Assembly: GCA_040954595.2 (NCBI GenBank)
Contig: CM082585.2
Coordinates: 9,970,564-10,034,563, forward strand
Direction: 5' to 3'
Length of the DNA stretch: 64,000 bases
From: Balanoglossus misakiensis
Lineage: Eukaryota > Animalia > Hemichordata
Below the pieces are notes generated by a model that searched no databases, was not told where the DNA came from, and saw only the letters and a list, made by a program, of their open reading frames with translations. The position numbers and the translations under genes were made by a program. Positions 14,161-23,243 of the stretch are shown one piece after another; the stretch's first letter is position 1; every line of letters starts with the position of its first letter.

Positions 14161-17100
14161 ATGAAGTTCTCCATAATTTGTTTAATTGTCTTATTTGCCT
14201 TCTGTCAGGTAAGTACAGCCCAGTAGTTTACCATATTGTGTTTGAGCTTTAGGGTTTTAAACTGTTTAGCCAAACATTTTAGTAGACCTAATTAATTTGG
14301 ATAGTTTCTATTCGAGTCACGTTTTGGGCGTGCTCAGGCACCGGATCACGACATCATCAATTAAAATATTATTGATAAATGACTAAATCTTTACGTCAAT
14401 ATATGAAATGACTTTGAACTAGGGCGTTGATTAATAGGTTGGGCGAGTTTTGTGCGTGTAAACTGGTTTTCCCTGCAATTGCCATGATTAAAAGTGTCTA
14501 TCTCAGCCTCGATTTCGTCTATCGTCTGCTGAATTGAAAAACACATCTCCACCAAGCCTCCCTGTGAAACAGCGCAATCGAGAATCGTCTATTTGTCATT
14601 GACAGTGAGGATTCAGAGGTGTGTTTACATTTCACAATATGTCGGAGAGATCGGTATTTACATTTCACGACACCGCGTCATCTTCTCACCGAAAGCTGAA
14701 TAGAAACCACCACAAAGCACTTATCCAAATGACGCTCATCACGAAACGGGTTTAAAGATAACAGCAAAATTTCACAACTTTTTGAAAAGGAAAAAAATCA
14801 ATAAATTCCCCCAGTGACACATTGCATTGTGGCAATGTGCGAATTATGCCAATCATTCTTCTTTATTGTCGATGTAATGATAACACTAACGTATCATTCG
14901 AGGATGCCCGACTTGTATATCGTTTTCACAGTTTTCATCAGTCAACAAAAGGGTGAGAATTTTCATATCTCGACAGCTAGACGACCGTATTGCTGGAAAT
15001 CTAACCCAAACAAACCACCGAATAAATTTAATTGGACTATATAATTCATGGGAACTGTCAAACATTGTTCCTGTGTGGCCGAGTTTGTTCGTTTCTATAG
15101 GATTAATCTAATCACTGCATCTGGGTCGGATCCGTAATGTTTTGACATTTTTCCAAAGGTGTCAAACGAAATATGCGCCCTCGTGTACAGGTGAATGTGA
15201 CGGGTTTATTCCACAAAGGGAAAACTCACAAATGACTCTGAACGATTCTTAACAAAATTCAATGCAATATGAAAGACACCGCGCGGAACGAAACAAGTTG
15301 AAAGAGGTGACTTCACGGTATCTGGTGAAATTATAATCTACTGTGGAAAAACTCTCACACTGGTAATTACAACTAGACAACCGGACGCGAACCGAATGTG
15401 ATCCCACAGACGTCATGCAAAACACACAACATAGCCTACACACACACACACACACATCCATCCAACCATCCAACCATCCAACCATCCATCCATCCAACCA
15501 TCCAACCATCCATCCATCCATACACACATCGGATGAAGAGAACTCGGTCACTTCACAAGAAAAACATCATGATTGGGCAAGTGGGTGAAACCCTGATAAC
15601 AACTCCATATCTGTCTGAAGGGGACCAAAGCCCTAGTTTGGCACGACCTTTATTGTAGCCGTGGGAATAATCACTTTTAGTCATCTGGCTATCAAAGCTG
15701 AATGCACATTTTGATTGGTATTTATTAGCCTGCATTGGCACTACGTATCTATAAAAATAACCCCATTATAGCACATGCAAATAAAGTGAATGATTTCTCG
15801 ATATTATCGGTATTCGTTATATCAGTGTAATCATAGTGAATGACTTCAGATAAACCTTGAACACCTGTAGGCCCTACTTCAACATTTTGGGATATTTGTC
15901 TCTCATTCTGTGTGATAAAAACGAGCTTTCATCAAAAGGCATTATTTGTAAAGAGAACGTGGGAACCGACAGAAACCATATATTTTTATACGTTTACTTT
16001 GGTGTGGCTACTTTAGTCAAATTATTTTATCAGCCAATACCCCATTTTTGCATTGTGTAATTTAAAAGGGTTTAACTCGGGTCGATCGTGGAAGTCGCTT
16101 TCTAAAAGTTGATTTCTCAAGACAAAACATTTTTTTGCGTTACCTACCGCTGCACAGTGTACTATGATAACAGTGCTTGAAAAATCGAGCAAAATTAAAT
16201 TAATTGTTTTCCTACTTTGATTGGTACTTATGACACTTTAATTCGTTTGTCTCAAGCTGATACTTTTTGTTTGTAGCCTGTGTCTGTGAGTATTTTGCGA
16301 TTCACTGATATCCGACGAACATCTAAAAGTATTGGTTATTTGTACTTCCACACAGGCACACGACAACCCTGGGGGGTCAAATGGTCGGGGTCATCAGGAA
16401 CATGGCAACGGCAACGGGTACGGTCACGATGATCATTCATCCGAAACCCAATCGGAATCTCGTGAGTCAAGTGAATCGTCGGAGTCCAGTGAGTCAAAGT
16501 CGTCGAGTTCATCGTCATCGTCATCTGAAGAGGAACCGGAGTGCGCGGGTAGGGAGCAATCAGTTTCATTGGGGGGGGGGGGGGTGAATATACAAAAGAG
16601 TACACTAGAGGGGCTACTCGGGGATTGGATGCAGTTGAAAGTAACATGCATGCACTGGGTTTGCAGGAACTTTATTTGGGAGAAATTAATTTAAAGTTGT
16701 AAACCCTATTAAAGAGGGAAGCATTTTGACAGAAAAGGAGAATAAATCATCATAGATAATAGAGCGACTGTCGCTTGCTTCCAAGGAAAAAGCGCAACTC
16801 TATATTTTTGCACCAGCGCAACCTAGTCCGGTCCCCTGCCCCCATCCCACCGCTGGCTGCGCTACGCAACCAACGCACAAGCGCATGCGCTCGAAATTGA
16901 ATGACGTTATCATAAACATGGCGTCTGTTGGATCGGCCACGTGGTTGTGGAGTGAGCGTGGTTGGACGTCTTGGTGCGGCGCTACAGGGCTCAGTATGGC
17001 TAGATATTCTCTGAAAGTTCTACACATATTCCTTAGTTTGGATTATGCGAGACAATGATAAGATTAAGGTTAGTTTGAGACCCAGACACACAATAATTCT

Positions 17101-23100: not shown

Positions 23101-23243
23101 TTGAGCGTCAGAGGAGCACGGGAAGCCATTTCCAACACGACGCCTCACAGCTGGCAGCAGAGGGCGATCCGGCCAATTTCGGCGGAAAGTGGACGAGCGG
23201 CTGGTGCGAGCCTCTGGACTACCTTCCTCCACGTACTATTTAG
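14161..23243 (+). CDS. Secreted arylsulfatase B/I/J-like protein, about 576 aa, predicted catalytically inactive
   Basis: 17 GT-AG exons: 14161-14208, 16356-16548, 17591-17638, 17807-17909, 18403-18454, 18772-18875, 19338-19459, 19749-19813, 19987-20094, 20279-20342, 20502-20599, 20815-20951, 21127-21188, 21447-21558, 21842-21912, 22569-22700, 23032-23243. They total 1731 nt with compatible phases. Signal peptide [21 protein letters not shown]-type motifs [92 protein letters not shown]. Confidence 0.88.
15439..15528. repeat. Compound microsatellite (CA)n + (ATCC/AACC)n
   Basis: Directly visible in intron 1 of the sulfatase-like gene. Confidence 0.9.
17965..18025. repeat. Short imperfect palindrome, probably a MITE core
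   Basis: GATTGCTTTTGATTGGTCAC ... GTGACCAATCAAAACCAATC. A similar GATTGG...CCAATCA fold-back occurs at about 47557-47611. Confidence 0.6.
18897..19073. mobile_element. Palindromic MITE-like fold-back element
   Basis: Arms of about 75 nt (AATACGCTCTTTTCATGAGTCTAG...GAGGCCAATGGGGAA and TTCCCCATTGGCCTC...CTAGACTTATGAAAAGGGTGTATT) around a short spacer, in an intron. Confidence 0.7.
22412..22608 (+). repeat. About 100-bp tandem duplication spanning an intron/exon boundary
   Basis: Two copies of AAACCAATC...ATTGTTATTTATATTTACTTGTTTAT...ACAG|ATGGACATTATGACATT(G/C)CAACGGGTGTATCTTCCCCAGT. Confidence 0.92.

What the first reader, a model, noticed from the sequence alone, without database searches (positions are those of the whole stretch)
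14161..23243. Secreted pseudo-arylsulfatase: intact 17-exon gene with the catalytic machinery systematically replaced
Seen in sequence: the frame is open across all 17 exons with canonical splice sites. Against the human ARSB active site (established: D53, D54, C91, R95, K145, H147, H242, D300, N301, K318), most positions differ. ADDLG becomes AENFG, CTPSR becomes SSPTR (AGC at 17902-17904), GKWHLG becomes GRWQLG, SVHEP becomes MPGVP, and TDNGG becomes SANGG; only R95, N301 and K318 remain. Established: eukaryotic SUMF1/FGE makes formylglycine from Cys only, so a Ser-type motif is not activated in animals. Inference: seven coordinated losses with the fold motifs preserved point to a protein kept for a non-enzymatic role, such as a sulfated-glycan-binding matrix, mucus or adhesive component. 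Sea urchin arylsulfatase has been described as an extracellular-matrix protein, but a fully dead ARSB-like family is not something I recognise.
Basis: partly seen in the sequence, partly recalled or inferred. Interest (0 to 1): 0.85.

Follow-up and report, generated by a model that had tools for sequence, protein, structure and literature searches.

The report
Acorn-worm sulfatase that lost catalysis
An intact 17-exon acorn-worm gene encodes a sulfatase-shaped protein with seven of ten active-site residues replaced, and relatives in two other acorn worms share the earliest losses, so it is likely an old, selectively kept non-enzyme that would bind sulfated sugars instead of cutting them.

Summary
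Seventeen GT-AG coding exons give an open 576-aa ARSB-like frame, and 7 of 10 active-site residues are replaced (numbering checked against 1FSU). The gene is not a one-off. Orthologs in Ptychodera flava (56% identity) and Saccoglossus kowalevskii (44%) form a fully supported clade that shares the H242G loss and, where the region is present, C91S. The losses were stepwise, not coordinated: two are clade-wide, D300 loss is shared with Ptychodera, and four are private to this genome. The protein keeps 26 of 26 near-invariant non-catalytic columns but only 3 of 10 active-site ones (Fisher p=1.4e-5), which neutral decay does not reproduce. The Ptychodera ortholog's model matches human ARSB (Z 55). 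A +9 basic helix shared only with Ptychodera suggests a gained polyanion-binding surface. Best reading: a likely secreted pseudo-sulfatase that binds sulfated glycans. Ligand, expression and inactivity are untested: no RNA run was listed, and dN/dS could not be computed. A duplicated exon-16 acceptor could frameshift some transcripts. Dead ARSB-like copies also arose independently elsewhere (12 other proteins). I found no description of this clade in the searchable literature. New variant of a known kind.

The parts
14126..14160 (+). Candidate 3' splice site (AG at 14126-14127) and 5' UTR part of the first coding exon; implies a further non-coding exon upstream
   Evidence: Sequence seen directly; not confirmed by RNA
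14161..14208 (+). Coding exon 1: predicted signal peptide (16 aa, hydrophobic core)
   Evidence: 9-residue hydropathy 3.6; no later 19-residue window above 1.36; no dedicated predictor was run
16356..16548 (+). Coding exon 2: His/Gly/Asn-rich tail followed by a Ser/Glu-rich linker; a similar His/Gly-rich tail is present in P0001 and P0003
17591..17638 (+). Coding exon 3: first core strand; D53->E (17629-17631), D54->N (17632-17634)
17807..17909 (+). Coding exon 4: nucleophile position C91->S (AGC 17902-17904), shared with P0001 and P0003
18403..18454 (+). Coding exon 5: R95 retained (18407-18409)
18772..18875 (+). Coding exon 6: clade-specific Gly->Cys at residue 175; start of the K145->R codon
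19338..19459 (+). Coding exon 7: H147->Q (19342-19344)
19749..19813 (+). Coding exon 8
19987..20094 (+). Coding exon 9: basic helix, residues 247-264 (19990-20043, net +9, shared only with P. flava); H242->G (20080-20082, clade-wide)
20279..20342 (+). Coding exon 10
20502..20599 (+). Coding exon 11: D300->A (20597-20599; Ser in P. flava, Asp in S. kowalevskii)
20815..20951 (+). Coding exon 12: N301 (20815-20817) and K318 (20866-20868) retained
21127..21188 (+). Coding exon 13
21447..21558 (+). Coding exon 14
21842..21912 (+). Coding exon 15: start of the clade-specific C-terminal insert
22432..22514 (+). Intronic tandem duplicate of the exon-16 acceptor plus the first 40 exon bases (one mismatch, which lies in the duplicate); frameshifts if used
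22569..22700 (+). Coding exon 16: Pro-rich clade-specific insert (low confidence in the ortholog model)
23032..23243 (+). Coding exon 17 with the conserved C-terminal Cys565 and the stop codon

Best explanation
This is an intact acorn-worm gene for an ARSB-like protein with its nucleophile Cys, three of four calcium ligands and two active-site His replaced, likely a secreted pseudo-sulfatase kept by selection that would bind sulfated glycans (mucus or matrix) rather than cleave them. SHOWN: open 17-exon frame; 7 of 10 site residues replaced; a four-member acorn-worm clade with stepwise loss; structural columns kept; ARSB fold in the ortholog's model. FROM ESTABLISHED KNOWLEDGE: SUMF1 converts Cys only, and Ser conversion is known only from anaerobes, so no formylglycine forms; unconverted Ser variants of bacterial sulfatases are inactive yet bind their sulfated sugars. 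INFERRED: the ancestral C91S+H242G protein was a substrate-trapping binder with its calcium site intact (the state in Saccoglossus). In the Ptychodera-plus-window branch the metal site eroded while a strongly basic helix was gained, which would move binding towards a calcium-independent polyanion surface. The basic residues of the old sulfate pocket (R95, K/R145, K318) remain.
For: Clade of the window protein, P0001, P0002 and P0003 at SH-aLRT 100; window+P0001 at 99 (also FastTree). The window protein keeps 26 of 26 non-catalytic columns conserved at >=95% in 239 canonical domains, against 3 of 10 active-site columns (Fisher p=1.4e-5; 44 of 47 at the 90% threshold). P. flava keeps 26 of 26 against 7 of 10 (p=0.017). 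Where P0001 and P0003 agree, the window differs at 4 of 9 active-site columns but only 2 of 56 highly conserved other columns. In neutral simulation the frame survives 80 substitutions in 0.25% of 4000 runs; at 30 substitutions all four private site changes arose in 0 of 4000 runs. Ortholog model: pLDDT 86, pTM 0.86; best match 1FSU, Z 55.1, rmsd 1.8 A over 453 residues. Basic helix: net +9 in the window and P0001, at most +6 in any other domain at that position; among the 5 highest of 291 domains for any 18-residue window. Ser-type sulfatases are almost absent from eukaryotes (PMC5066984 section 7). Inactive Ser variants bind substrate (bioRxiv 2021.07.23.453482 passages; PDB 6PSM title). Mammalian ARSA binds sulfated zona glycans at the sperm surface (PMC7827414 passages).
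Against: There is no expression, localisation or binding data. No protein identical to this gene model turned up in the 5.8-billion collection. The whole domain is net acidic (-14), and the basic helix is absent from both Saccoglossus copies. For the Saccoglossus copies the structural-versus-active-site contrast is not significant (8 of 10 vs 23 of 26, p=0.6), and P0002 and P0003 are partial models. Only two other species supply orthologs, and none was listed for Glandiceps talaboti although its other sulfatases were. Loss of calcium ligands should weaken sulfate binding in the old pocket. R95 and K318 may be kept for folding alone. The duplicated acceptor could spoil a share of transcripts. 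The window protein itself was not folded.
Confidence: 0.55

Rival explanations
1. A functional pseudoenzyme, but not a glycan binder. It would act as a protein scaffold, as a regulator or partner of active paralogs from the large acorn-worm ARSB-like family, or as a carrier for a small sulfated metabolite.
For: The same selection evidence applies. Acorn worms have many paralogs: S. californicum gene names run to Arsb-68 and Arsi-11 (PMC13554239 supplements). The clade conserves a His/Gly-rich N-tail and a Pro-rich insert outside the pocket. Continued erosion of the pocket in this lineage suggests the pocket itself matters little.
Against: The basic pocket residues stay basic in all members that cover them (K145R is conservative), and a basic helix was gained. 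No partner is indicated by any result.
Confidence: 0.25
2. The clade was once functional, but this copy is a recent or incipient pseudogene, and the four private changes reflect decay.
For: Four private site changes. Longer terminal branch (0.33 vs 0.24 for P. flava). Duplicated exon-16 acceptor that frameshifts if used. No matching protein record. A frame inactivated fewer than about 30 substitutions ago would still be open in about 10% of runs (2% with the assumed indels).
Against: Decay short enough to leave 17 exons and 32 splice sites intact would hit the four sites 0.16 times on average, not four times. Structural columns are kept, 26 of 26. The one mismatch within the duplicated 40 bases lies in the intronic copy, while the exon keeps the clade's Pro.
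Confidence: 0.1
3. A neo-enzyme: the unmodified Ser serves as nucleophile, as in alkaline phosphatase (recalled), for a phosphate or phosphodiester substrate.
For: S1 sulfatases belong to the alkaline-phosphatase superfamily. The S-x-P-x-R motif is intact and matches the updated catalytic pattern. The Saccoglossus copies keep D300, N301, K145, H147 and K318, and P0003 also keeps D53 and D54.
Against: In the window protein three of four metal ligands and both His are replaced, and P. flava has also lost D300. H242 (99% conserved in S1) is Gly in all four members.
Confidence: 0.08
4. Still a working sulfatase with a tolerant active site.
For: Glu at D53, variable residues at D54, and Arg at K145 occur singly among S1 sequences. 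One active Bacteroides enzyme has a Gln for a metal Asp.
Against: No Cys for SUMF1 (PMC10375594 passage); D300 and H242, each 99% conserved, are gone.
Confidence: 0.02

Closest known systems
Human arylsulfatase B (ARSB, SulfAtlas S1_2; PDB 1FSU) and the animal ARSB/ARSI/ARSJ-like family
   Same: Fold (ortholog model Z 55.1, rmsd 1.8 A), structural motifs, R95/N301/K318, signal peptide; 37% identity to canonical invertebrate members.
   Different: No Cys for formylglycine; three of four Ca ligands and both His replaced; added His/Gly-rich N-tail, Pro-rich insert and basic helix.
P. flava 'arylsulfatase I-like' (P0001) and S. kowalevskii 'arylsulfatase I-like/J-like' (P0002, P0003)
   Same: Orthologous clade; H242G in all three, C91S in the two that cover the site; shared tail and insert.
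   Different: They keep K145 and H147, and D53/D54 where covered; Saccoglossus also keeps D300 and lacks the basic helix. They are annotated as ordinary sulfatases.
Engineered or unconverted Ser variants of sulfatases (ARSA C69S, PsS1_19B C77S, Bacteroides Ser enzymes)
   Same: Ser at the nucleophile position, inactive, still bind sulfated sugars.
   Different: Those keep calcium and the rest of the site; this is a natural, heritable version with further losses.
Sperm-surface ARSA (PMC7827414, passages) and sea-urchin arylsulfatase as a matrix protein (recalled; not found)
   Same: A sulfatase fold used outside the cell to bind sulfated ligands.
   Different: Those are moonlighting proteins of other subfamilies; ARSA is an active enzyme, and I did not check the sea-urchin protein's site.
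PbgA/YejM bacterial pseudo-sulfatase domain (recalled, no call)
   Same: Sulfatase-superfamily fold kept without catalysis.
   Different: Bacterial inner-membrane LPS sensor; unrelated lineage and architecture.

Membership tests
S1 FGly-sulfatase (ARSB-like, S1_2), as an active enzyme | Sulfatase alpha/beta fold | tested here: met
   Tested on the 56%-identical ortholog P0001; Pfam PF00884 at E 1.4e-45. The spliced window protein itself was not folded.
S1 FGly-sulfatase (ARSB-like, S1_2), as an active enzyme | [CS]-x-P-x-R signature | tested here: met
   Matches the updated catalytic pattern at residue 127, with Ser
S1 FGly-sulfatase (ARSB-like, S1_2), as an active enzyme | Cys at the nucleophile position, convertible by eukaryotic SUMF1 | tested here: not met
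   AGC (Ser) at 17902-17904; Sumf converts Cys, microbial AtsB converts Ser
S1 FGly-sulfatase (ARSB-like, S1_2), as an active enzyme | Four calcium ligands D53, D54, D300, N301 | tested here: not met
   E, N, A, N
S1 FGly-sulfatase (ARSB-like, S1_2), as an active enzyme | K145/H147 and H242 | tested here: not met
   R, Q and G
S1 FGly-sulfatase (ARSB-like, S1_2), as an active enzyme | R95 and K318 | tested here: met
   Both retained
S1 FGly-sulfatase (ARSB-like, S1_2), as an active enzyme | Sulfate-ester hydrolysis | not testable with these tools
   Needs an assay
Animal ARSB-like lineage (descent) | Closest relatives are animal ARSB-like proteins, not bacterial Ser-type sulfatases | tested here: met
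   Named top hits of P0001 are animal ARSB/I/J-like; 1FSU scores 244 bits vs 175 for the best bacterial entry. The sister group is unresolved and the trees are unrooted.
Pseudoenzyme | Catalytic residues lost while fold residues stay constrained | tested here: met
   26 of 26 vs 3 of 10, p=1.4e-5; simulation
Pseudoenzyme | Loss shared by orthologs | tested here: met
   H242G in 3 of 3 orthologs; C91S in 2 of 2 that cover the site
Pseudoenzyme | Expressed as protein, and shown inactive | not testable with these tools
   No run could be listed for read mapping; needs RNA-seq and an assay
Pseudogene | Stops, frameshifts or broken splice sites | tested here: not met
   None in 17 exons and 16 introns; one intronic duplicate acceptor of unknown use
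Sulfated-glycan-binding protein | Binding to sulfated glycans | not testable with these tools
   Indirect only: retained basic pocket residues and a gained basic helix

The most novel reading that the evidence does not exclude
Acorn worms turned an ARSB-type sulfatase into a secreted sulfated-glycan reader in stages that are still visible in living species. Saccoglossus has a calcium-holding substrate trap (C91S, H242G), the natural counterpart of the mutants crystallographers make. Ptychodera and this genome show loss of the metal site together with gain of a heparin-binder-like basic helix. With the independent dead ARSB-like copies in abalone and other lineages, this would be an unrecognised, repeatedly evolved class of animal 'sulfo-lectins'.
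Probability: 0.3. Interest if true: 0.75.

Novelty: new variant of a known kind. Interest (0 to 1): 0.52.

Why it matters
Eukaryotic Ser-type sulfatases are nearly unrecorded (2 of 857 Ser-type sequences in the 2016 SulfAtlas survey), and my searches found no described animal pseudo-sulfatase family. This clade gives a graded series (2, 3 and 7 site losses) in which loss of catalysis and change of ligand can be tested directly. If binding is real, it supplies natural non-cleaving probes for glycan sulfation patterns. It also shows that 'arylsulfatase-like' annotations in expanded invertebrate families include non-enzymes. Pseudoenzymes in expanded families are a known phenomenon, which limits the surprise.

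Tried and rejected
RNA check: no RNA holder was listed, so no reads were laid; this is no evidence either way. No whole genome is held, so paralogs in this species and synteny could not be examined. dN/dS was not possible without ortholog DNA. The exon-17 query found none of 20 candidates, and its Atlas look-up gave only scores of 0.79. The cluster look-up for P0001 could not be made. A metagenome scan with the clade alignment (17 of 64 parts scanned; best 80 of 570 relatives kept) gave no clade member: the best matches to the window protein were 32-36% identical, with Cys in 84 of 85 aligned segments. Bacterial origin of the Ser motif was rejected. The S. californicum secretory-cell marker 'arsi' (SCA23607) was considered as this gene's ortholog and rejected: its printed probe sequence, read by eye, has a Cys-type motif and a different N-terminus. 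Other Arsi/Arsj rows there carry no sequence and cannot be linked (the file was cut when stored). The other non-Cys proteins do not join this clade in the tree. Literature searches for a described pseudo-sulfatase or this clade found nothing relevant; most subscription papers are not in the library. Passages of PMC5519703, PMC7279497, PMC8869759 and PMC11212366 added nothing on inactive copies. One review was not held. Earlier scan findings: none. One search failed on an off-by-one position and was rerun. No complex prediction was sent, as no partner is indicated.
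Full report
Observation. The 17 exons between 14161 and 23243 join into a 1731-nt frame: 576 aa plus stop, with 16 of 16 introns GT-AG. Donors and acceptors are consensus-like. 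The chain was built by hand from the sequence, but it aligns colinearly with an annotated Ptychodera flava protein, P0001, at 56% over 578 columns, which supports the exon choice independently. At the ten active-site positions the window protein has E, N, S, R, R, Q, G, A, N, K, so only R95, N301 and K318 remain. An AG at 14126-14127 suggests an untranslated upstream exon. A 94-nt tandem duplication places a second copy of the exon-16 acceptor upstream; its use would give a stop at codon 498.

Relatives. Searches with P0001 returned two Saccoglossus kowalevskii models, P0002 and P0003, as the closest single-domain hits. Both are partial, 84% identical to each other and 44% identical to the window protein. 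The window is therefore most likely from an enteropneust hemichordate (inference). The four proteins form one clade in a 291-domain FastTree and in a 39-row IQ-TREE (quick mode, LG+G4; SH-aLRT 100, window+P0001 99). The sister group is unresolved. All four have Gly at H242, and the three that cover the site have Ser at C91. S. kowalevskii keeps D300, P. flava has Ser there and the window has Ala. D53E, D54N, K145R and H147Q occur only in the window, each one base from the canonical codon. The losses are thus stepwise: two, then one, then four. The Saccoglossus-Ptychodera split is several hundred million years old (recalled, no call).

Selection or decay. I took the 239 of 291 domains that have all ten canonical residues. 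Of the non-catalytic columns conserved at 95% or more in these, the window protein keeps 26 of 26, against 3 of 10 active-site columns (Fisher p=1.4e-5; 44 of 47 and 64 of 71 at looser thresholds). P. flava keeps 26 of 26 against 7 of 10 (p=0.017). The contrast is not significant for the Saccoglossus copies (p=0.45-0.6). Window-P0001 identity is 88% in the most conserved columns and about 50% in variable ones. In a neutral simulation (4000 runs per setting; indel rate assumed), the frame and splice sites survived 80 substitutions in 0.25% of runs. At 30 substitutions they survived in 10% (2% with indels), but the four private sites were then hit 0.16 times on average and never all four. Very recent inactivation cannot be excluded, but it cannot explain the active-site pattern. 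dN/dS and transcript evidence were not obtainable.

Structure. The spliced protein could not be submitted, so P0001 was folded with a 117-sequence alignment: pLDDT 86, pTM 0.86, with low confidence only in the N-tail and the Pro-rich insert. The best match is human ARSB, 1FSU (Foldseek E 4e-48; Z 55.1, rmsd 1.8 A, 453 residues), ahead of bacterial S1_19 entries at Z 46.

The clade shares a His/Gly-rich tail after the signal peptide, a Gly-to-Cys change at residue 175 and a Pro-rich C-terminal insert. The window and P. flava proteins share a helix of net charge +9 (residues 247-264; helix 218-232 of the model). At that position no other domain exceeds +6. Taking the best 18-residue window anywhere, they are 2 of the 5 domains out of 291 that reach +9. 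Both Saccoglossus copies lack it, and all four domains are net acidic overall.

Mechanism. Formylglycine is required for S1 activity, and only organisms of anaerobic habitats are known to make it from Ser (bioRxiv 2021.07.23.453482, passages). Sumf converts Cys and microbial AtsB converts Ser (PMC10375594, passages). In SulfAtlas, Ser-type sequences are prokaryotic except for two, and the equivalents of H242 and D300 are 99% conserved; Glu at D53, other residues at D54 and Arg at K145 do occur (PMC5066984, sections 7 and 8). The decisive losses are therefore the shared ones. Inactive Ser variants bind their sulfated sugars (PDB 6PSM title). I infer an ancestral substrate-trapping binder, with later loss of the metal site and gain of a basic surface. 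Precedent for a sulfatase binding sulfated glycans outside the cell is sperm ARSA (PMC7827414, passages). The sea-urchin matrix role is recalled and was not found in the library. Acorn-worm epidermis is highly secretory, and a different, Cys-type arylsulfatase marks a secretory cell cluster in Schizocardium (PMC13554239, passages and supplements). That fits a mucus setting but says nothing direct about this gene. I put about 0.85 on 'functional and non-catalytic' and 0.55 on the glycan-binding version.

Against uniqueness. Among 275 domains that cover all scored positions (of 316 matches in 265 proteins), 19 lack the Cys: 3 in this clade and 16 in 12 other proteins. These include Haliotis asinina P0043 (C91G, D300V) and the unnamed P0219 and P0216, with 8 and 7 of 11 positions changed. 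None joins this clade, and some may be gene-model errors. Acorn worms carry many ARSB-like genes (names up to Arsb-68), so dead copies are to be expected. What stands out here is that the loss is kept across three species.

Novelty. Six searches found no description of this clade or of an animal pseudo-sulfatase family. The library lacks most subscription papers, and bioRxiv supplements were closed. The earlier-findings index held nothing. Verdict: a real, conserved pseudoenzyme clade derived from ARSB-like sulfatases, a new variant of a known kind. It is not a member of the active S1 enzymes, and its ligand is untested. Interest 0.52.

Noticed in passing
window 22432-22608: 94-nt tandem duplication of the exon-16 acceptor plus 40 exon bases; it could be an alternative frameshifting 3' splice site, a polymorphism or an assembly artefact.
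   Followed up: partly
window ~24000-31200: A TPR-containing gene on the minus strand (looks like DNAJC3 from recall; TPR hits below cut-off) lies head-to-head with a DZIP1-like gene (PF13815, E 6e-20). The same pair are neighbours in human (recalled), a possible ancient microsynteny.
   Followed up: partly
window 1297-1602: JmjC exon (PF02373, E 4e-12), KDM6-like by recall.
   Followed up: partly
window 9093-9509: Single 138-aa Cys-rich ORF with several CxxC pairs and no Pfam match; possibly derived from a mobile element.
   Followed up: partly
window 18897-19073: 76-nt inverted repeat (83% complementary, 25-nt spacer) in intron 6, MITE-like.
   Followed up: no
window 191-1036: Tandem repeat with a period of about 21 codons, open in frames on both strands; likely a minisatellite.
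   Followed up: no
window 51268-57930: Large-exon, low-complexity coiled-coil gene on the + strand (ORFs of 419 and 651 aa); CEP295-like by recall; no Pfam hit in the two short pieces tested.
   Followed up: no
P0043, P0219, P0216, P0208/P0264, P0197, P0122, P0123/P0134, P0125/P0126/P0128: Other sulfatase-like proteins lacking the nucleophile Cys, on separate branches; several have Gly there, and some are dead domains in tandem with intact ones.
   Followed up: partly
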